Notes under the pieces: model-generated
Database searches by the model: none
What the model saw: only the letters and a program-made list of their open reading frames with translations
What the model was told of the DNA's origin: nothing
From: a virus
Taxonomy: Duplodnaviria; Caudoviricetes
Direction: 5' to 3' (one strand)
Virus record (IMG/VR): IMGVR_UViG_3300028591_000020
Span: 1 to 64,000 of that record
Length of the DNA stretch: 64,000 bases
Shown here: piece by piece, positions 1 to 37,064 of the stretch
How the letters are laid out: every line of letters begins with the position of its first letter
How positions within the stretch are numbered: the first letter of the stretch is position 1
Position numbers and translations under genes: made by a program

Positions 1-46
1 CGGGTTCGCTGTTCGCCCTGTTCAGAATATCGTTACCAAGAAATAA
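1..46 (+). CDS. 3' end of a second DGR target gene (truncated by window edge), ...GFAVRPVQNIVTKK*
   Basis: nt 1-25 are identical to the reverse complement of TR 7248-7272; reading frame gives GFAVRPVQ, as in the main target; TAA at 44-46. Confidence 0.85.
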   Translation, partial: GFAVRPVQNIVTKK

Positions 47-55
47 CCAAACACT

Positions 56-103
56 CGGCTCTGCCAACAAGCCGTTCCACAAGAACGGCCCAAGGCAGAG
101 TCG
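56..103 (+). promoter_or_regulatory. Bipartite hairpin downstream of VR2 (candidate DGR target-recognition element)
   Basis: CGGCTCTGCC-AACAA-GCCGTTC-CACAA-GAACGGC-CCAA-GGCAGAGTCG; same architecture as 8202-8250. Confidence 0.75.
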
Positions 104-118
104 CATATTATAGACGAT

Positions 119-565
119 ATGAAATTCAAAGTTGGTGACAAAATCAAAATTGCGAAAAGCTTCATGCGGATGGGCCGTAATCATGTTGGCTCCGTCGGTA
201 TAGTATTAGAGCATAGATGTTATGGTGGCAGGTATGTTGGCAACGAACCTACGCATTATGTCGTTAAGTTTGATTGCTACAAAGCACCACACATCTTCAT
301 GCGGTTTGATTTGGAAGATAGTTGTGAGCTAATTAAATCAGAAAATATGGCAGAAAAAACATCAGCACCAAAGAGTAAGATTGAGCTTGTTCGTAAAGAT
401 TTATTCATAACGAAGGCTTGCAAATGTTTTTGTGATGACATTTGCGAAAAAGGAATGGCTGGCATGTGTTTCCATAAGCATGATGGTCAAGGCCAAGTAA
501 AGAATACATTTAAGTATAATGAGTGTAATGAACTAAAGTTGCTTATTAACGCTTTAAATAGTTGA
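119..565 (+). CDS. hypothetical phage protein (N-terminal KFKVGD motif)
   Basis: 148-aa ORF in a tightly packed + strand run. Confidence 0.7.
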   Translation: MKFKVGDKIKIAKSFMRMGRNHVGSVGIVLEHRCYGGRYVGNEPTHYVVKFDCYKAPHIFMRFDLEDSCELIKSENMAEKTSAPKSKIELVRKDLFITKACKCFCDDICEKGMAGMCFHKHDGQGQVKNTFKYNECNELKLLINALNS

Positions 566-5454: not shown

Positions 5455-6009
5455 TTACTCGTTAACTTCCTGTTCTTGTTCCTCAGCAGCAGCAAAGAAA
5501 GCCTCGTAAGGCTCGAAGTCGATAGCGTCTTTCTTCTGCCAGCCCTCTGCAAGACACTGCTGAATGTGAACGTAAACACCATCGTAGAAGTTGTTCAGGT
5601 CATCAAGAGTCTCGAAGGTACGGTAGCAGGCTGCGTTGTTCTCGTCCTCACCAATCTTGAAGGTCACAGGAACATAATTCTTGTTGCCTTTCTTCTCTGC
5701 TCTACGCTGAGCCTCTGAATAGTTGCTTTGATTCTCCTTAGACAGCCATACGTGACGCTCTACACCGTCGTTGTCCGTCCAAACGAAGCCTGTGAGAATC
5801 TTCTCGTCCGTCTGAGAGTCGATGTCGGCTATGATAGCCTTCTTCACGTCCTCTAAGGTTACCTGAGAAACCTGCTTCTTGTAGATGTAAATCTCTATCC
5901 AAGTAGCGTTCTCCTCGTCTACTTCTTGATAGCCGTAGCAGATGATCACTCGACTTGCATCCTCCTTGACGGGAGCAAAGTCTGTCTTCTTTCCAAACAC
6001 TTTGTTCAT
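5455..6009 (-). CDS. hypothetical protein (DUF4376-like, tail-fibre associated)
   Basis: GFVW...VWLSKENQSNY...PVTFKIG...GWQKKD pattern. Confidence 0.6.
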   Translation of the reverse strand: MNKVFGKKTDFAPVKEDASRVIICYGYQEVDEENATWIEIYIYKKQVSQVTLEDVKKAIIADIDSQTDEKILTGFVWTDNDGVERHVWLSKENQSNYSEAQRRAEKKGNKNYVPVTFKIGEDENNAACYRTFETLDDLNNFYDGVYVHIQQCLAEGWQKKDAIDFEPYEAFFAAAEEQEQEVNE

Positions 6010-7210
6010 AATTACAAGTTTTTAAATGTTTATAAAAAATAAGTCTGTCTGTAATCTTGGTCATATCCTCGTCGAAGATGCCAATGCGCAAGATGGGTTG
6101 TATCATCAGCAGCTTTCGACTCAGATTGTACGATTTTGTGTGCCTGAATATGCCCAAGTAAGAGTTTACGGAGCGTAGAATCTTCCAAGGCTTCGAGTAG
6201 TCGAACTCGGCAATCTTCTTCTTGATACGCTCTAAGGCATGATTCGAGATATATGTTCGCCAAGGCTTGATGTATGCACCCAGGAACTCTACGCCATGAT
6301 GCACCTCGCTCACCTCCAGCTTGCCCATATGTAAGTCCAAACCAAGTTCCGCTTTCAGGAATTGTCTTATCCTTGGCACCAGACTCAACAGCCATTCTTT
6401 GTTTGCACTCACAACCGCTGCATCGTCCACATAACGCCCATAGAAGTGACACTTCAATTCGCGTTTCATGAATTGGTCTAACAGATTCAGATACACATTC
6501 GAGAAGAGTTGGCTCGTAAGATTGCCAATGGGAAGTCCAAGGCCTTCTTCCAGTTGCAACATGCTCTTGGCTGGGTCCAGCCCATCCCAGTCGGACGGGT
6601 CGCCACAGATGATGCAGTTCTCTTTCGGATTCAGCATAACGATAATTTCCGTCAGCCATTCTACAAATCCCATGTCGAGAATATCTCCCCATGTAGCCGA
6701 TGTGTCTTTGCTGATACGATGTGTGGCCATCTTCCTCAGACTGGCAACAGCAATCTCCAAAAGCCTCTTGCGCACAATGTGCATGAAGTAGCCGCGAATA
6801 TCTAAGTGCATGACATAGCACTTCCGTTGCCAGTTGTGACTCTCCTTTCTGCAGAAGTCCGTGATACGTCCTATTCCATAGTGTGTGCCACGTTCCTTGA
6901 TGCAGCTGTATGTGTCCTTTATAAATGTTCTCTCGAACAGGCCATGCGTGTAGTTGAAGTAAAGATGATGTACGATACGGTCTCTGAATACAGCTGCAAA
7001 TATCTCCCGCTTCTTCGGGTAGTCCACAATGAAGCATTTCGATGGCAGGGGCTTGTATCTCCGATAATACAAATCGTCGCACAGCTCTTCCATGTTCTGC
7101 TTGAGATTCGACTCCCATTTCCTTACATAACTCCTTTTTGACTTGTGCTTTTTCGCACTGTAATATGCTTGATAGAGGTCGAGAAGGAGCTGCTGCCGTG
7201 TCAGAACCAT
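5738..7210 (-). CDS. DGR reverse transcriptase
   Basis: FRDRIVHH, LDIRGYF, GLPIGNLTSQLFSNVYL, YGRYVDD; adjacent TR/VR pair. Confidence 0.95.
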   Translation of the reverse strand: MVLTRQQLLLDLYQAYYSAKKHKSKRSYVRKWESNLKQNMEELCDDLYYRRYKPLPSKCFIVDYPKKREIFAAVFRDRIVHHLYFNYTHGLFERTFIKDTYSCIKERGTHYGIGRITDFCRKESHNWQRKCYVMHLDIRGYFMHIVRKRLLEIAVASLRKMATHRISKDTSATWGDILDMGFVEWLTEIIVMLNPKENCIICGDPSDWDGLDPAKSMLQLEEGLGLPIGNLTSQLFSNVYLNLLDQFMKRELKCHFYGRYVDDAAVVSANKEWLLSLVPRIRQFLKAELGLDLHMGKLEVSEVHHGVEFLGAYIKPWRTYISNHALERIKKKIAEFDYSKPWKILRSVNSYLGIFRHTKSYNLSRKLLMIQPILRIGIFDEDMTKITDRLIFYKHLKTCNYEQSVWKEDRLCSRQGGCKSSDHLLRLSRSRRGERYLDRDLHLQEAGFSGNLRGREEGYHSRHRLSDGREDSHRLRLDGQRRCRASRMAV

Positions 7211-7247
7211 ACAATAAGAGAGAAATAAGGATAGTCAGAAGTGTATG

Positions 7248-7434
7248 CTGAACAGGGCGAACAGCGAACCCGTTGTACCGGTTGTTGTTGTTCTGCGGAT
7301 TGACACCACCAGAGTTGAAGTTCAAGTTCCGAGCATTGACAGCCGAGTTGAACGATGCAGACCAGTAGTTGCCGTTCGAGCCGCGATTGTTCCAAGACGA
7401 GCCGTTGCCGTTGCCAGAGCAAGCGAAGAAAAGC
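7248..7434 (-). repeat. DGR template region (TR), 187 bp
   Basis: AAC-rich copy of target 3' end; 16 mismatches to VR1 by hand alignment, 15 at TR adenines. Confidence 0.95.
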
Positions 7435-7599
7435 TTTCGGCCACAACCTTGCACGATAACACTAAGGGGTTGCACAAGGCAAGACCAAAGTGTATCTTTG
7501 ATTTTTCCCATCACCGCAAGCAGTGGTAGGACGTGTGGCCTGTGAATATCGTTCTGAACCATCCTGATTGTTATTAAAAATGTTATTAGTCTCGTATTG

Positions 7600-8160
7600 T
7601 TAGAATATAGCAGAAACCTGTCTTCGCAAGTCGCGTAGAATATCGTAGGCCTCCCGTGGTGATATGTCCTCGATTGGCAGTGAAACGATATGACTGATGA
7701 TGTCAGATATACGCATGATTCTCGGAGCCTGCTCAGCTGTCTCACGATCTTCGCGCTTCTGCTTCTTGCTCTCCATCAATGGCAGCGCGTTTTTCCAATC
7801 CTCCTTCATCTTATTGAGGTTTTCAAACGTCACTTCACCAATGTTCTCAGGAAGTGCAATCTTCACGTCAATCTGGGTGTCGCTGATGGGCTGAAACTCG
7901 ATATTCCCATTGCTTGGAAGATACTTGCCGATAGACGATGCGGGAAAACCAACGAAAGCGTCAATATATCCGTCTTTCAACTTCTTTGCCAACACCTTCA
8001 AAGGCTTCTCTACTGCTTCACCAAAAGGAAATGCAGACATCAGCCACGCGCTCCAATCATGAGCGCGATACCAGTCACCTTCCTTTATCAAGTGAATCAC
8101 ACTCCACTGGCTTGATTCCTCGCGCTTTGTTTCAATGCTTATTATTTCTGCTATTGTCAT
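7600..8160 (-). CDS. DGR accessory protein, MutS domain-I-like (MSL type)
   Basis: IHLIKEGDWYRAHDWSAWL resembles the MutS mismatch-binding motif; lies between target and TR. Confidence 0.65.
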   Translation of the reverse strand: MTIAEIISIETKREESSQWSVIHLIKEGDWYRAHDWSAWLMSAFPFGEAVEKPLKVLAKKLKDGYIDAFVGFPASSIGKYLPSNGNIEFQPISDTQIDVKIALPENIGEVTFENLNKMKEDWKNALPLMESKKQKREDRETAEQAPRIMRISDIISHIVSLPIEDISPREAYDILRDLRRQVSAIF

Positions 8161-8201: not shown

Positions 8202-8250
8202 CGGAGTGAGCCTTGGGGCCGCTTGTGGAGCGGCCTTGTGGCCCACTCCG
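8202..8250 (-). promoter_or_regulatory. Bipartite hairpin downstream of VR1
   Basis: minus strand CGGAGTGGGCC-ACAA-GGCCGCT-CCACA-AGCGGCC-CCAA-GGCTCACTCCG. Confidence 0.8.
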
Positions 8251-8289: not shown

Positions 8290-9408
8290 TTACTGAACAG
8301 GGCGAACAGCGAACCCGTAGCACCGGTAGTTGTTGTTCAACGGATTGACACCACCAGAGTAGAAGCCCAAGTCCCGAGCATTGACAGCCGAGTTGAACGA
8401 TGCAGACCAGTAGCCGCCGCTCGAGCCGCGACTGTACCAAGACGAGCCGTAGCCGTAGCCAGAGCAAGCGAAGAAAAGCAGATTGCCGTTATTCTTCGAC
8501 TTGAGATAGATACCTACAACACCGTTAACGGTGACGAGCTTGTTAGTCGTGCTGGCATCTATGACGGTAGTACCGTCAGCCTGTACGAAGTCACAGTTGT
8601 CAAACAACTCCTGGAACTCAGCCGTTGTCGGCATACGCCAAGGACCACCGAGGTTAGCACGGGCAGCGTCCTGAGAAGGTGCCATGCTGGCAGTCAGCTT
8701 ACAGCCAGGAGTCTGGCCGTAGATAGAATCGGGCTTGTAGCCATTCTCTGCTTCGTTCTTTGAGTTGTCCCATGTGCCAAAGTCGTAGTCGAAGCTCGAG
8801 TTGTCTTTGGGATTATGGCCGTCAGTATTACCCCATGAGAAGAATGTTTTCTCGTACTGGAATGCGCTGGCAGCGAATTTGTCAGGCTGCGTAAGGTCGA
8901 TGTCTGCGTCAGCCCACTTCAAGCCGCTGGGCAGACCCATATCTACGACGTGGGCAGTAGGTGTCTGACTCTGTTCAAGGCCCATGATGCTTACCATGTT
9001 CCAGTTCGTGCCGTCGTATTGGAACTGCACGATGGTACGAGCCTTGATGACTCCGGGCTGGATGGCAGCACCATACACAAGGATTGGCTTTGCGCCTGTA
9101 TTGTTCACGTTCAATGTAGCACCAGGTACTTCATTGGCAGTGGTAAAGAACACGCTAACCTTGCCATTCTTCTTGAGGGCAAAGTTGGAGATGGCAACTG
9201 TCTTGGCTTGTGTGGTGGCAGGAGTAGAGCATGTGCCATACCCGTTGCCGGAACACGCCATGTCCTGAATCAACTGCTGGGCTGGGTACTGCTTTACAGG
9301 AGTACCATCGGGATTGCAAATCATCACAATCTGGTCAGCAGTAGGAGCACCTTGGGTAAGCCCAGAAACAAGTGCTTTAATAGAATTGGCTGTTGAAATT
9401 CCGTCCAT
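8290..9408 (-). CDS. DGR target: tail-fibre/adhesin with C-terminal C-type-lectin-like variable domain
   Basis: N-terminal fibre-like segment; VDMGLPSGLKWA...WRMPTTAEFQEL; VR at C-terminus; at distal end of tail operon. Confidence 0.85.
   Translation of the reverse strand: MDGISTANSIKALVSGLTQGAPTADQIVMICNPDGTPVKQYPAQQLIQDMACSGNGYGTCSTPATTQAKTVAISNFALKKNGKVSVFFTTANEVPGATLNVNNTGAKPILVYGAAIQPGVIKARTIVQFQYDGTNWNMVSIMGLEQSQTPTAHVVDMGLPSGLKWADADIDLTQPDKFAASAFQYEKTFFSWGNTDGHNPKDNSSFDYDFGTWDNSKNEAENGYKPDSIYGQTPGCKLTASMAPSQDAARANLGGPWRMPTTAEFQELFDNCDFVQADGTTVIDASTTNKLVTVNGVVGIYLKSKNNGNLLFFACSGYGYGSSWYSRGSSGGYWSASFNSAVNARDLGFYSGGVNPLNNNYRCYGFAVRPVQ
8293..8479 (-). repeat. DGR variable region VR1
   Basis: colinear with TR at offset 1045; substitutions at TR adenines (e.g. 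AAC to TAC, AGC, GGC, GAC). Confidence 0.95.
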
Positions 9409-16306: not shown

Positions 16307-17626
16307 TTACTCGAATGATGGCGATATAACCTTTTGGTTGTCGTCTATAACTTGACTGTCGTTCTCTACGACAATATCACAGCCTGAATAGAGAGAAACG
16401 TCAGCCCATACGTTAAAGCCCTCGGGGAACGAGAATCCTTTTTCGCTTGGGATAAAGCTGATGTTTGGCGTAGTACCCAAGGAAATGATTGCTCCAGTTT
16501 TGAGATTCTGAGCTTTCCAGTGAATGCGGAACAGACATCTTCGGTTTTGTGGCACGTCTCTTCCGTTATAGCGTAGCTGCATTTCGTAGCTTGCCCGGAT
16601 GCTCATGTGTACATCTTGCCTGTTACCAGTCAGCTGAATGGGGTCTGCGTGTAAGGTATCGTTGAGCGTCATCGTAAACTGTGTGGTGTAGAATGGATTG
16701 TTGTCTGACAAAGGATTCTGCCAAGCCTCGTCTGCTTCCTTACGCTTGCCGTAACAGCGAACCTTGAACTTAGTTTGGATCATCCTCGCGTCAAAGGTCA
16801 GCGTCTTGGTCTTTACTCCTGTCAGCTGCAGATTCTCTATCTCTTCTTCCGTGAACTGCCTCCAGCCGCTTGCCGATGTGCTATCCTCTTTCACCCAAAG
16901 ATAGCTTGCCTCGTTGTCTGGAACTTCACCGTCAGTACCTATCAGCTGTACGTTTACAGAACGTGGCCAAGGAATATCAAGAATGGTCTGACCAGTAGGA
17001 ATAGCATCTGTGAAGGACAATGGATCAAGCAGAACTTCGTCACCACAGTCACCCTTCATTACAATCATATCCGTATTGTAGTTCTCTGTAGTGAAGTCAA
17101 TGCTCTTCAAGACACGCATCGTCATACCTGTACGAGTGTCAACGAACTTCAAGACGGCATAGATAGGCATTGCTGTTAGACGTGTCACATTCTTGTGGAC
17201 GATAAGGCACAAGTTTGGAACGTTATCACACCATGCAGCGTTGCTTCCGTCACTTATCAGGAAGTCTTCACTGCGCCATGCTGCTTCATGAGTCAGCTCG
17301 CCAGTCTCTTCGTCGTAGATGTCAACATCATCCAATACCGACTGTGCAGGATTGGAAATGCGGCCTGTCTGATAGTCACCCTCTATAGGCATCTGTGTGT
17401 ACCATTCTATATCGCTCAGTGTGACAAATCCAGTCATGATGTTTGAAGGGTCATTGACAAACACTTTTCCACCAAGAATACACGGCACCCACTTTCTGTC
17501 ATCCTCAAAGGTGCTCTCGGTAGTATAGAACATCTGACGTGTACTGCCACCAAGGATTACGATGTCTGCAGACATCGACAGTGCATCGAACACCATTTGG
17601 CTGGAATTGGTTCTACTCTTTATCAT
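16307..17626 (-). CDS. tail/baseplate structural protein
   Basis: 439-aa ORF in tail operon. Confidence 0.6.
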   Translation of the reverse strand: MIKSRTNSSQMVFDALSMSADIVILGGSTRQMFYTTESTFEDDRKWVPCILGGKVFVNDPSNIMTGFVTLSDIEWYTQMPIEGDYQTGRISNPAQSVLDDVDIYDEETGELTHEAAWRSEDFLISDGSNAAWCDNVPNLCLIVHKNVTRLTAMPIYAVLKFVDTRTGMTMRVLKSIDFTTENYNTDMIVMKGDCGDEVLLDPLSFTDAIPTGQTILDIPWPRSVNVQLIGTDGEVPDNEASYLWVKEDSTSASGWRQFTEEEIENLQLTGVKTKTLTFDARMIQTKFKVRCYGKRKEADEAWQNPLSDNNPFYTTQFTMTLNDTLHADPIQLTGNRQDVHMSIRASYEMQLRYNGRDVPQNRRCLFRIHWKAQNLKTGAIISLGTTPNISFIPSEKGFSFPEGFNVWADVSLYSGCDIVVENDSQVIDDNQKVISPSFE

Positions 17627-35393: not shown

Positions 35394-37064
35394 ATGGAAA
35401 AGTTTTCAGGACTTAAAATGCCCGATGGTGAGCCGATTCTGACTCAAGAGTACATCAATACCCTCCAGCAGCAGGCGATTGCAAAGAAACTCAAAAATGC
35501 AATCGTGCCACAGGCTGGAGGGCAAGAAAACATGCTCGCTACCAATGTGGATATACTGATTTGTGGTGGTTCGCGTGGTGGAAGTAAAAGTTTTTCGGGA
35601 TTGATGGAAGCACAAAAAGACATACTAAACCCCGATTTCCATGCAGCCGTATTCAGAAACAACAAGAAAGCCATGGAAAAACTGATACGTGACTCACGTA
35701 AACTTTTTTCACAATTTGGCACTTATAACAAGTCTCAGTCTGATATGACGTGGAACTTCAATGCAGGCGGCACCCTCGGCTTCTACTACCATGATGACAG
35801 CTATGAAGATTTCAAAGAACGTTTCCAAGGTCAGGAGTACGCATACATCTTCATCGACGAGATAACACACATCGAATACAACAAGTTCAAATACCTCACA
35901 ACATGTAACCGTAATGCCTATGGCATTCGCAACCGTTTTTGGGGAACTTGTAACCCTGACCCTCGCTCATGGGTACGTCAGTTCATCGACTGGTGGATTG
36001 ACAAAGACGGATATATCGACCCTGAGCGTGACGGAAAGGTACGCTATTGCTTCATGAAGGGTGACAGAATCAATCAGATTGTCTGGGGTGACACTCGCGA
36101 AGAGGTGTATCTCAAGTGCAAGGAAGAGATTGATGAAGTCTGGAATCCCAAGTTTGATGAATACGGTATGACGAAGGAACAGATGGTGATGTCCGTCGCT
36201 TTCGTACGTGCTGACCTCTCGCAGAATCCTATGCTTCTGCTCTCTGACCCCACATATCTCGCCCGTCTGGCCCAACAGGACAAAGGACAGGTATTGCGTG
36301 ACCTCAAAGCCAACTGGAATGCCTCTGAGGTGGGGGATGACATGATTTCCTACGACGAGTTGGAACAGGTGTTCGGTAATGCCTATCAGTATGGTGACGG
36401 CATCAGACGGTGTACGGCAGATATTGCCCTCGAAGGCGGTGATAACCTTGTCATGTATCTTTGGATAGGCTACCATGTTGCTGACTTCTGCTGTGTCAAC
36501 GTCAATTCCAAGACGGCAGTATCAGTCATTCAGCATAAATTGAAGGAGTGGGGTGTGCTCGAAGAGAATTTCTGCTACGACCTGCAGGGTGTAGGACAGC
36601 TCGTAAAGGGATTCTTCCCAGAAGCCATACCATTCAACAACCAGGCAGCTCCTATTGCTGACGAGGATGATGACTATGATGACGGGGTGAAGTATCTTTA
36701 CAAAGACCTTAAATCACAGTGTGCATATCTCACCTACCGCAAGCTCAAGGAGCTGAACATATCTTTCGATGCAAGTCTGCTTGACCGGAAGGTGTCGGGT
36801 AATGGCTACGAGGATATTATGCTTCGTGATGTGTTACAGAAGGAGCGTATGTCATTGCGTCGTGATCCAGATACAAAGGACAAGGGTTTCTGTCTGATGC
36901 CAAAGAAAAAATCGAAGGTAATAGTAGGACACTCGCCTGACTGGTGGGAGTCTCTGTATTTCCGAGCGTACTTTGACATTGCAGAACCCGTACAGATGGA
37001 AGTCGAAAACTCATGGATGCTGGGGGCAGACATGGAAATGAATTTTGATATGGAATTTAATTAA
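35394..37064 (+). CDS. terL: terminase large subunit
   Basis: Walker A GGSRGGSKS, Walker B YIFIDE, C-terminal nuclease DIALEGGD...SPDWWES. Confidence 0.9.
   Translation: MEKFSGLKMPDGEPILTQEYINTLQQQAIAKKLKNAIVPQAGGQENMLATNVDILICGGSRGGSKSFSGLMEAQKDILNPDFHAAVFRNNKKAMEKLIRDSRKLFSQFGTYNKSQSDMTWNFNAGGTLGFYYHDDSYEDFKERFQGQEYAYIFIDEITHIEYNKFKYLTTCNRNAYGIRNRFWGTCNPDPRSWVRQFIDWWIDKDGYIDPERDGKVRYCFMKGDRINQIVWGDTREEVYLKCKEEIDEVWNPKFDEYGMTKEQMVMSVAFVRADLSQNPMLLLSDPTYLARLAQQDKGQVLRDLKANWNASEVGDDMISYDELEQVFGNAYQYGDGIRRCTADIALEGGDNLVMYLWIGYHVADFCCVNVNSKTAVSVIQHKLKEWGVLEENFCYDLQGVGQLVKGFFPEAIPFNNQAAPIADEDDDYDDGVKYLYKDLKSQCAYLTYRKLKELNISFDASLLDRKVSGNGYEDIMLRDVLQKERMSLRRDPDTKDKGFCLMPKKKSKVIVGHSPDWWESLYFRAYFDIAEPVQMEVENSWMLGADMEMNFDMEFN

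What the first reader, a model, noticed from the sequence alone, without database searches (positions are those of the whole stretch)
1..103. Second, remote DGR target on the opposite strand, in the non-structural gene region
Seen: nt 1-25 match the TR 3' end 25/25. They continue with AATATCGTT, matching the VR1-specific flank TAATATCGTT rather than the TR flank CATACACTT, i.e. an IMH-type rather than IMH*-type end. A double hairpin like that of VR1 follows. This VR is about 7 kb from the TR, inverted relative to it, and upstream of DUF5131/MazG-type genes rather than in the tail operon. Established: DGRs can mutagenise several targets in trans. Inference: one TR diversifies both a tail adhesin and an early/middle protein whose body lies just outside the window.
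Basis: partly seen in the sequence, partly recalled or inferred. Interest (0 to 1): 0.75.

Follow-up and report, generated by a model that had tools for sequence, protein, structure and literature searches.

The report
Second, distant target of phage DGR
The first 25 bases of the window are the tail of a real second gene that this rumen Prevotella-type phage rewrites with its mutagenic retroelement; the gene sits among replication genes, not tail genes, but this layout is already published for related gut phages and the protein's job is still unknown.

Summary
Observation confirmed. The record is a circular 75.5-kb phage assembly whose first 127 bases repeat at its end, so the DNA "upstream of 1" is the contig's end. 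There lies a 265-aa gene (genome 74717-75514; its stop is window 44-46). Its last 185 nt (VR2) match the template repeat (TR, window 7248-7434, minus strand) with 16 mismatches, all at TR adenines. VR2 differs from VR1 at 19 sites. It carries the VR-type flank AATATCGTT and a two-tier hairpin with a CACAA loop that occurs only at the two VRs.

In 15 near-identical homologues, 17 of 21 hypervariable columns are TR adenine codons. The protein has a conserved N-terminal helical module (invariant FCREAYKF in 15 loci) and a C-type-lectin-like domain. In ten other phage or prophage records its relatives are likewise non-adjacent DGR targets, 7-49 kb from the TR in either orientation. Where neighbours were annotated, they are replication or DNA-modification genes.

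The layout is not new. Benler et al. 2021 (Quimbyvirus) and Hedzet et al. 2021 (Bacuni phages) describe it. This scan also found it on other DNA (e1-5768296). Verdict: new member of a known kind. A non-virion role for target 2 is plausible but unproven.

The parts
1..25 (+). Last 25 nt of VR2. The whole VR2 is genome 75309-75493 (about L005:11309-11493); its first 160 nt lie outside the window, at the other end of the circular contig.
   Evidence: 185-nt match to the TR with 16 mismatches, all at TR adenines.
1..46 (+). 3' end of the target-2 gene (265 aa; genome 74717-75514; stop codon TAA at window 44-46). Unlike target 1, it reads through the VR flank and adds the tail NIVTKK.
   Evidence: The reading frame is conserved in relatives.
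26..34 (+). VR-specific 3' flank AATATCGTT, playing the role of an IMH. It is shared with VR1 and absent from the TR.
   Evidence: In L007 the two VRs share a different flank (TTCGCCTAC), which is again absent from its TR.
56..103 (+). Two-tier GC-rich hairpin downstream of VR2: 10-bp outer stem, 7-bp inner stem, CACAA loop.
   Evidence: z = -5.8; a hairpin follows all ten VR flanks folded and none of the six TR flanks; this loop type occurs only at the two VRs of the genome.
7248..7434 (-). Template repeat (TR), 187 nt with 39 adenines, mostly in AAC or AAT codons.
8293..8479 (-). VR1, at the 3' end of the adjacent target.
   Evidence: 16 mismatches to the TR, 15 at adenines.
8290..9408 (-). 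Target-1 gene (372 aa), at the end of the late operon. Its C-type-lectin-like domain is 51% identical to that of target 2.
8202..8250 (-). Two-tier hairpin downstream of VR1, with a CCACA loop.
7600..8160 (-). DGR accessory gene (186 aa). It has no Avd, Pfam, NCBIfam or PHROG match, but it is conserved in related cassettes.
5738..7210 (-). DGR reverse transcriptase, with the IGNLTSQ and YVDD motifs. The true end is probably near residue 400.

Best explanation
Window 1-103 is the 3' end of a genuine second, non-adjacent target of the phage's single diversity-generating retroelement (DGR). RNA from the TR (7248-7434, minus strand) is copied by the DGR reverse transcriptase with random bases opposite adenines. 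The cDNA then replaces either VR1 (860 bp away, same strand) or VR2 (7.2 kb away across the circular junction, opposite strand). Targeting is inferred to use three elements that both VRs share and the TR lacks: the GC-rich VR end, the flank AATATCGTT, and a downstream two-tier hairpin with a C(C)ACA(A) loop.

Target 2 is a 265-aa protein without a signal peptide. It consists of a conserved N-terminal two-helix module (invariant FCREAYKF), a short beta hairpin and a C-type-lectin-like domain. The variable residues sit in the last 55 residues. It belongs to a family that is a dedicated remote DGR target in Bacteroidales phages and is encoded among replication and DNA-modification genes.

Shown here: the A-specific mismatches, independent variation of VR2, diversification in natural populations, protein-level selection on the N-module, and the conserved layout. 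Inferred: the homing mechanism (by analogy with phage BPP-1) and any function of the protein. My best guess, at about even odds, is a diversified binding protein that is not a docked virion part and that acts inside or around the infected cell.
For: TR-VR2: 16 of 16 mismatches fall at TR adenines over 185 nt. VR1 and VR2 differ at 19 sites. The genome holds only the TR, VR1 and VR2. The RT has the DGR hallmark IGNLTSQ plus YVDD.

The hairpins are strong and specific to the VRs.

Population data: in 15 homologues at least 87% identical, 17 of 21 hypervariable columns are among the 21 TR A-codons (p about 1e-19). Mean residue types per column are 4.4 at A-codons against 1.2 elsewhere.

The same pairing appears in ten other records. 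Counts are mismatches at TR adenines over all mismatches:
- L007: 15/15
- L010: 22/22
- L012: 17/19
- G001: 18/20
- G003: 15/15
- G007: 12/14
- G009: 17/19
- G008: 12/12
- G006: 17/20
- Bacuni_F1: 16/18
Distances range from 6.6 to 49 kb, in both orientations.

The fold search puts the three solved DGR variable proteins on top: TaqVP Z 4.9, TvpA Z 4.3, Mtd Z 4.1.

FCREAYKF is invariant in 15 loci while 7 of its 8 third codon positions vary.

Neighbouring genes are replication, recombination or methylase genes here and in distant relatives.

Guo et al. 2011 (PMC3240598) showed for BPP-1 that IMH plus a hairpin suffice for targeting, that stem structure and loop sequence matter, and that the target works in either orientation.
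Against: No reads were available, so within-sample variation at VR2 was not measured. Activity is inferred from comparisons between genomes.

The lectin fold assignment is weak. Pfam Lcl_C scores 20.6 bits against a cut-off of 34.9. The model has mean pLDDT 63.5 and all fold-search Z scores are below 5.

The accessory protein matches no Avd model.

Nothing shows when target 2 is expressed or whether it is in the virion. Most phage DGR targets studied so far are structural (PMC8144416).

One relative (L012) has a frame-shifted VR2.

One 97%-complete relative (G002) has a family member but no RT.
Confidence: 0.93

Rival explanations
1. Target 2 is a second virion-borne receptor-binding or adhesion protein. 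It docks on the tail or capsid through its N-terminal helices and merely happens to be encoded outside the late operon. The DGR then widens host range or adhesion through two adhesins.
For: Most phage DGR targets are tail proteins (PMC8144416). Its lectin-like domain is a paralogue of target 1's, at 51% identity. Small lectin-only targets in other two-target phages were proposed to be Mtd-like (PMC10743442). The protein has no signal peptide, as expected of a virion protein.
Against: In every record examined the gene sits among replication, recombination or methylase genes, on their strand. The N-terminal motif is invariant between phages that share no BLAST-detectable capsid, portal, terminase or tail proteins. 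G000 shares only 5-6 similar ORFs with G003 and with G009. A conserved virion docking partner is therefore hard to find. In cultured Bacuni phages, F1 and F2 differ by 15 SNPs in the distant VR yet infect the same host, whereas differences in the adjacent VR go with a host change (PMC8143477).
Confidence: 0.4
2. VR2 is a fossil: a former target, or a duplicated lectin-like domain, that is no longer rewritten. Its resemblance to the TR reflects shared ancestry only.
For: No read-level data were available. G002 keeps a family member without an RT. L012 carries a frame-shifted copy.
Against: All 16 mismatches are at adenines and none at the 146 other aligned bases. Near-identical phages differ almost only at TR A-codons. 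The flank and hairpin are intact. In L007 the lectin-like part of target 2 has been exchanged, and the VR matches that phage's own TR at 15 of 15 mismatches.
Confidence: 0.04
3. Assembly artefact: the start of the contig is a chimeric or duplicated copy of VR1, produced because variable repeats break assemblies.
For: The contig break falls inside a repeat. A 127-bp terminal repeat is typical of a k-mer overlap; a second record, G003, has exactly the same length.
Against: VR2 differs from VR1 at 19 sites. It has its own upstream gene and its own downstream flank. The 127-bp overlap includes 102 nt of unique sequence. L006, L007 and L010 carry the same junction within uninterrupted contigs.
Confidence: 0.01

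Closest known systems
Quimbyvirus ('Quimbyviridae') two-target DGR (Benler et al. 2021, PMC8008677)
   Same: These are phages of Bacteroides and Prevotella with a median genome of 75.2 kb; this genome is 75.5 kb. One VR sits at the end of the tail-fibre region. The second target is distal to the structural module, on the opposite strand, next to methyltransferases, and the authors read it as non-structural.
   Different: The Quimbyvirus RT is reported as three overlapping frames. Here one ORF carries all the RT motifs. I could not obtain the Quimbyvirus sequence, so homology of the second targets and family membership of this phage were not tested. The neighbours here are replication and recombination genes plus a single C5 methylase, not a four-methylase and tRNA-ligase island.
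Bacuni phages F1/F2/F4 of Bacteroides uniformis (Hedzet et al. 2021, PMC8143477)
   Same: These are cultured phages with one TR and two DUF1566-type targets, one beside the RT and one distant. The distant one (Bacuni_F1_00026) lies between DNA polymerase A and C5 methyltransferases. It is a distant homologue of this family (26.6% identity over 96% of P0047; hhalign probability 98.5 for the C-terminal domain). Its VR shows 16 of 18 mismatches at TR adenines.
   Different: The genome is 40 kb. The target is on the same strand as the TR, 12 kb away. The accessory protein is of the Avd type. The N-terminal motif is only loosely similar, with no FCREAYKF.
Bordetella phage BPP-1 DGR (Mtd; target-site rules of Guo et al. 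2011, PMC3240598)
   Same: Adenine-specific TR-to-VR transfer. The VR lies at the 3' end of a C-type-lectin-fold gene. A VR-specific 3' element plus a downstream hairpin mark the target. Targeting works in either orientation and in trans.
   Different: BPP-1 has a single, adjacent target and an Avd accessory protein. Its hairpin is a simple 8-bp stem next to the IMH. Here the hairpins are two-tiered and lie 30-42 nt downstream, and the accessory protein is of an unknown family.
Non-adjacent targets of phage-associated DGRs (Wu et al. 2018, PMC5758913)
   Same: That survey found 45 of 372 DGRs with non-adjacent targets. In prophages these lie within 50 kb of the RT, with one adjacent and one not.
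   Different: The survey did not describe this protein family or its constant position among replication genes.

Membership tests
Diversity-generating retroelement (target / variable repeat) | A TR-VR pair whose mismatches fall at TR adenines | tested here: met
   16 of 16 mismatches at A over 185 nt, p about 8e-11.
Diversity-generating retroelement (target / variable repeat) | An RT of the DGR class, with the (I/L/V)GxxxSQ motif and a YxDD catalytic box | tested here: met
   IGNLTSQ and YVDD are present. RVT_1 scores 39.2 bits against a cut-off of 29.6.
Diversity-generating retroelement (target / variable repeat) | A VR-specific 3' element (IMH versus IMH*) and a downstream hairpin or cruciform | tested here: met
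   The flank AATATCGTT is shared by VR1 and VR2 and absent from the TR. Hairpins occur only after VRs. Their function was not assayed.
Diversity-generating retroelement (target / variable repeat) | The VR lies in a C-type-lectin-fold domain at the C-terminus of the target | tested here: inconclusive
   Lcl_C scores 20.6 bits, below the cut-off of 34.9. The model has pLDDT 63.5. The top three structural matches are TaqVP, TvpA and Mtd, but only at Z 4.1-4.9. A relative, P0025, passes the Lcl_C cut-off (36.4 bits).
Diversity-generating retroelement (target / variable repeat) | An Avd-type accessory protein | tested here: not met
   The 186-aa accessory protein has no Pfam, NCBIfam or PHROG match. 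Non-Avd accessory genes are known in DGRs (PMC5758913), so this does not exclude a DGR.
Diversity-generating retroelement (target / variable repeat) | Ongoing diversification in natural populations | tested here: met
   17 of 21 hypervariable columns in 15 near-identical homologues are TR A-codons, p about 1e-19. This compares genomes, not reads.
Quimbyvirus-type two-target DGR phage (Benler 2021) | A second target distal to the structural module, on the opposite strand, beside DNA-modification genes | tested here: met
   The gene starts 16 nt after a 569-aa C5 methylase gene.
Quimbyvirus-type two-target DGR phage (Benler 2021) | Placement by TerL, portal and MCP phylogeny in 'Quimbyviridae' | not testable with these tools
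   No Quimbyvirus sequence is in the collections searched. The genome size of 75.5 kb agrees with the published median of 75.2 kb.
Quimbyvirus-type two-target DGR phage (Benler 2021) | An RT split over three overlapping frames | tested here: not met
   A single ORF carries all the RT motifs. A 571-codon alternative-frame ORF overlaps it but translates as junk apart from the TR.
FCREAYKF-lectin remote-target family (defined here) | An N-terminal motif ..LK.QLL..FG....K.(I/V)DFCREAYKF followed by a C-type-lectin-like C-terminus, 225-270 aa in all | tested here: met
   A search of 1.8 billion representatives found the N-module only at the N-terminus of such proteins or in short fragments.

The most novel reading that the evidence does not exclude
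The remote target is not a virion part. It would be a DGR-diversified intracellular binding protein of the replication and anti-restriction module. A constant N-terminal adaptor (FCREAYKF) would dock on a highly conserved partner, either a host protein or the retroelement itself. The hypervariable lectin face would track a fast-changing host factor such as a defence protein. That would make it a phage-side counterpart of the DGR-diversified 'antigen sensors' of bacterial conflict systems.
Probability: 0.3. Interest if true: 0.75.

Novelty: new member of a known kind. Interest (0 to 1): 0.35.

Why it matters
The finding confirms that one retroelement in this rumen phage rewrites two genes. It also ties together scattered reports (Quimbyvirus, Bacuni phages, a 135-kb phage seen earlier in this scan). 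At least the relatives tested here share a single small protein family as their remote target, always encoded among replication or DNA-modification genes. This holds even in phages that share almost nothing else.

If that protein proves to be non-structural, DGRs in gut and rumen phages would do more than switch receptors. They would also diversify an intracellular or released binding protein, probably in phage-host conflict. Bacuni phages are cultured, which makes the question testable at the bench.

Tried and rejected
The context of the many metagenomic homologues could therefore be read only through the search for related loci and the genome search.
- PHROGs and NCBIfam gave nothing for target 2, target 1 or the accessory protein.
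- The ESM Atlas gave no usable hit for the N-module.
- Foldseek against the PDB found nothing at E <= 0.001. Only the wide VIA search pointed to DGR variable proteins, and weakly. A profile search of PDB sequences gave only Lcl at E = 0.04.
- The top hits of the N-module search were giant or LPXTG surface proteins. They match only a short 'GYDENGxPLI' spacer repeat and were set aside as irrelevant.
- I tested whether the VR2 hairpin is just the phage's general intergenic 'punctuation' hairpin. It is not: the CACAA-loop type occurs only at the two VRs.
- I tested whether target 2's lectin domain is re-created from each phage's own target 1. It is not: the non-VR parts of target 2 proteins are 52-72% identical to one another, against 32-48% to target 1 proteins.
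- My first proteome comparison was flawed by ORF calling and was redone.
- Quimbyvirus itself could not be fetched. GenBank phages hold no close relative.

Full report
**What is at the coordinates.** Window 1-25 reads CGGGTTCGCTGTTCGCCCTGTTCAG. It is 25/25 complementary to 8293-8317 (the end of VR1). Extended to 29 nt, it is 28/29 complementary to 7244-7272 (the end of the TR plus flank). The next nine bases, AATATCGTT, equal the flank of VR1 (TAATATCGTT) minus one T. They are unlike the TR flank CATACACTT. A two-tier hairpin follows at 56-103: 10-bp outer stem, 7-bp inner stem, CACAA loop. Folded as DNA it gives -17.1 kcal/mol, z = -5.8, and none of 200 shuffles is as stable. VR1 has its counterpart at 8202-8250 (z = -8.3). 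The TR flank does not fold.

**Where the rest of the gene is.** The window is bases 1-64000 of a 75,595-bp virus record whose first 127 bases recur at its end. A second, unrelated record (G003) has a terminal repeat of exactly the same length. From general knowledge of assemblers, that is the signature of a circular contig closed by a 127-mer overlap. I fetched bases 64001-75595 as L005. A 265-aa ORF runs from L005:10717 to 11514, and its stop is window 44-46. Its last 185 nt align to the TR without gaps and with 16 mismatches, every one at a TR adenine (39 A in 187 nt; hypergeometric p about 8e-11). For comparison, VR1 has 16 mismatches, 15 of them at adenines. VR1 and VR2 differ from each other at 19 positions, so they were rewritten independently. 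The genome holds no further copy.

The join across the contig ends is real. L006, L007 and L010 carry the target-2 gene and then the orf148 homologue on uninterrupted contigs.

**The retroelement.** On the minus strand the order is:
- target 1 (9408-8290, with VR1 at 8479-8293);
- the VR1 hairpin;
- a 186-aa accessory gene (8160-7600);
- the TR (7434-7248);
- the RT (7210-5738).

The RT has an RVT_1 domain and the DGR hallmarks IGNLTSQ and YVDD. The accessory protein matches nothing in Pfam, NCBIfam or PHROGs, so it does not look like Avd by sequence. It is nevertheless conserved in related cassettes.

**Is VR2 still being rewritten?** The 90%-identity cluster that contains this protein has 22 members. 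I aligned 15 homologues that are at least 87% identical. Residues 1-197 are almost invariant, with 1.16 residue types per column. The 21 codons that carry an A at position 1 or 2 in the TR average 4.4 types, and the other VR codons 1.2. Of the 21 columns with three or more residue types, 17 are TR A-codons (p about 1e-19). This compares genomes rather than reads, but it is what active mutagenic homing predicts.

**What target 2 is.** It has no signal peptide or membrane segment (by reading the sequence). The AlphaFold model is modest (pLDDT 63.5). It shows two N-terminal helices (3-15, 21-36), a beta hairpin, and from about residue 66 a globular domain.

In a search that does not depend on Foldseek, the three best matches to that domain are the three solved DGR variable proteins: TaqVP (Z 4.9), TvpA (Z 4.3) and Mtd (Z 4.1). 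FGE-sulfatase-like folds come next. Pfam gives only a sub-threshold Lcl_C hit. The domain is 51% identical to that of target 1.

The N-terminal module defines a family. A word-based search found 106 clusters of 164-304 aa. An exhaustive HMMER search of 1.8 billion representatives found the module only at the N-terminus of proteins up to 270 aa long, including the full-length 200-270-aa members and short fragments. Two subtypes of C-terminal domain, one long and one short, carry the same N-module. The eight residues FCREAYKF are invariant in 15 distinct loci, while seven of their eight third codon positions vary. The constraint is therefore on the protein, not on the DNA.

**The layout is conserved.** In every long enough relative that has an RT, the family member is a non-adjacent target of that record's own TR.

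| Record | Mismatches at TR adenines | Distance from TR | Orientation to TR |
|---|---|---|---|
| L007 | 15/15 | 6.8 kb | inverted |
| L010 | 22/22 | 6.6 kb | inverted |
| L012 | 17/19 | 8.7 kb | inverted |
| G001 | 18/20 | 49 kb | direct |
| G003 | 15/15 | 19.5 kb | direct |
| G007 | 12/14 | about 38 kb | direct |
| G009 | 17/19 | about 15 kb | direct |
| G008 | 12/12 | about 37 kb | direct |
| G006 | 17/20 | about 35 kb | direct |

One 97%-complete record (G002) has a family member but no RT.

The neighbouring genes belong to replication, recombination or DNA modification:
- Here they are RecT-like, exonuclease VIII, helicase, SSB, NinB, DnaD-like, DUF6633 and C5 methylase genes, then target 2, then DUF5131 and a MazG-like gene.
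- In G002 they are RecE- and RecT-like genes.
- In G003 they are helicase and methyltransferase genes.
- In G001 there is a DnaB-like helicase gene.

Yet G000 shares only five or six BLAST-detectable ORFs with G003 or G009. These include the RT, the integrase and the N-module of target 2 (plus DUF6633 in G003). No similarity was detected in capsid, portal or terminase genes; only one short weak match (27% identity over about 250-280 aa) fell in a large late-operon protein.

The non-VR parts of target-2 proteins are closer to each other (52-72% identity) than to target 1 of the same phage (35-48%). In L007, 95.7% nucleotide identity to G000 runs through the end of the methylase gene and the first 114 nt of target 2. 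It then drops to 71%. The lectin-like part was exchanged while the N-module was kept.

**Target-site signals.** In all ten VR flanks folded, a strong nested GC hairpin follows 30-45 nt after the VR, and in none of the six TR flanks. The stems differ between VR1 and VR2 and between phages, but the loops keep C(C)AC(A/C)A. In G000 a 7-bp GC stem with this loop occurs only at the two VRs. Within a phage the two VRs share 9-11 nt just after the VR (AATATCGTT in G000, TTCGCCTAC in L007). That stretch differs from the TR flank and differs between phages.

This matches the rules worked out for BPP-1: IMH plus hairpin are sufficient, stem structure and loop sequence matter, and the target works in either orientation (PMC3240598). 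The homing mechanism here is inferred by that analogy; it is not shown.

**What is already known.**
- Wu et al. 2018 found non-adjacent targets in 45 of 372 DGRs, including many prophages with one adjacent and one non-adjacent target within 50 kb (PMC5758913).
- A note from this scan on another genome (e1-5768296) pointed me to Benler et al. 2021, which I read. Quimbyvirus-like phages of Bacteroides and Prevotella have a median genome of 75.2 kb. [quoted passage not shown] That is the layout reported here.
- Cultured Bacuni phages also have an adjacent and a distant target (PMC8143477). I found that the distant one, Bacuni_F1_00026, lies between DNA polymerase A and C5 methylases. It is a distant homologue of this family and shows 16 of 18 mismatches at TR adenines.
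- In that paper F1 and F2 differ by 15 SNPs in the distant VR and infect the same host. F1 and F4 differ in the adjacent VR and infect different hosts. This is a small hint that the remote target does not set tropism.

**Function.** Two readings remain.

(a) *A second adhesin on the virion.* This fits the prior for phage DGR targets and the paralogy with target 1.

(b) *A non-virion binding protein of the replication and counter-defence module.* This fits three observations: the constant gene position, the invariant N-module in phages whose structural genes are unrelated in sequence, and the Bacuni host-range data.

I put the two at roughly even odds, with (b) slightly ahead. Neither was tested here.

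**Verdict.** It is a new member of a known kind.
- the remote targets form one protein family with a constant N-terminal module and an exchangeable lectin-like domain;
- the family holds its position among replication genes across very different phages;
- both VRs of a genome share a private flank and a loop-conserved hairpin.

Interest is moderate to low (0.35) because the layout is published. The open question of what the second target does can be tested in the cultured Bacuni phages.

Noticed in passing
window 6030-7745 (-): A 571-codon ORF in an alternative frame overlaps the RT gene by about 1.2 kb and runs through the TR. Apart from the TR-encoded lectin segment, its translation looks like out-of-frame junk. 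Separately, the last ~90 codons of the RT ORF (5738-6009) overlap the next gene, and relatives align only to about residue 396. Benler et al. report an RT in three overlapping frames in Quimbyvirus, so a frameshift arrangement may be worth a look.
   Followed up: partly
L012:1080-1994 (= P0016): In this relative VR2 carries a 1-nt indel relative to its TR. The target-2 frame therefore ends in unrelated residues, and an upstream extension gives a 304-aa ORF. This is a DGR-made frameshift, a dead copy, or an assembly error in a variable region.
   Followed up: no
L007:9673-11019 compared with genome 74389-75595 and window 1-359: There is a recombination breakpoint inside target 2. Identity is 95.7% through the end of the methylase gene and the first 114 nt (the N-module), then 71%. 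In L007 most of the methylase gene is missing; only about 103 C-terminal codons align.
   Followed up: partly
L005:10840-10920 (target 2 residues 40-68): The linker 'LVGYDENGAPIIEKTS..TPKEIT' resembles a roughly 30-residue spacer repeat ('GYDENGLPLI...TKEQL') that recurs 9-33 times in LPXTG-anchored and giant surface proteins (P0107-P0109). It is probably a chance match or a common beta-hairpin motif.
   Followed up: partly
G002 (record of L013), 17202-17502 and 36044-36190: This 77-kb, 97%-complete phage has a family member and a second lectin gene that is 77% identical in the VR-like stretch. It has no RT (no RVT_1 hit) and no A-biased template, so it may be a lineage that lost its DGR.
   Followed up: partly
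L005:8095-8736 (orf213, DUF6633): This protein of unknown function lies two genes upstream of target 2. It is one of only six ORFs shared with the otherwise unrelated phage G003 (42% identity), where it also lies about 4 kb upstream of the target-2 gene.
   Followed up: no
window 7600-8160 (-): The DGR accessory protein (186 aa) has no Avd, Pfam, NCBIfam or PHROG match. It is conserved at 30-68% identity in the cassettes of L007, L008, L010 and L012. It may be a new accessory family; another note of this scan, e1-5854511, covers it.
   Followed up: partly
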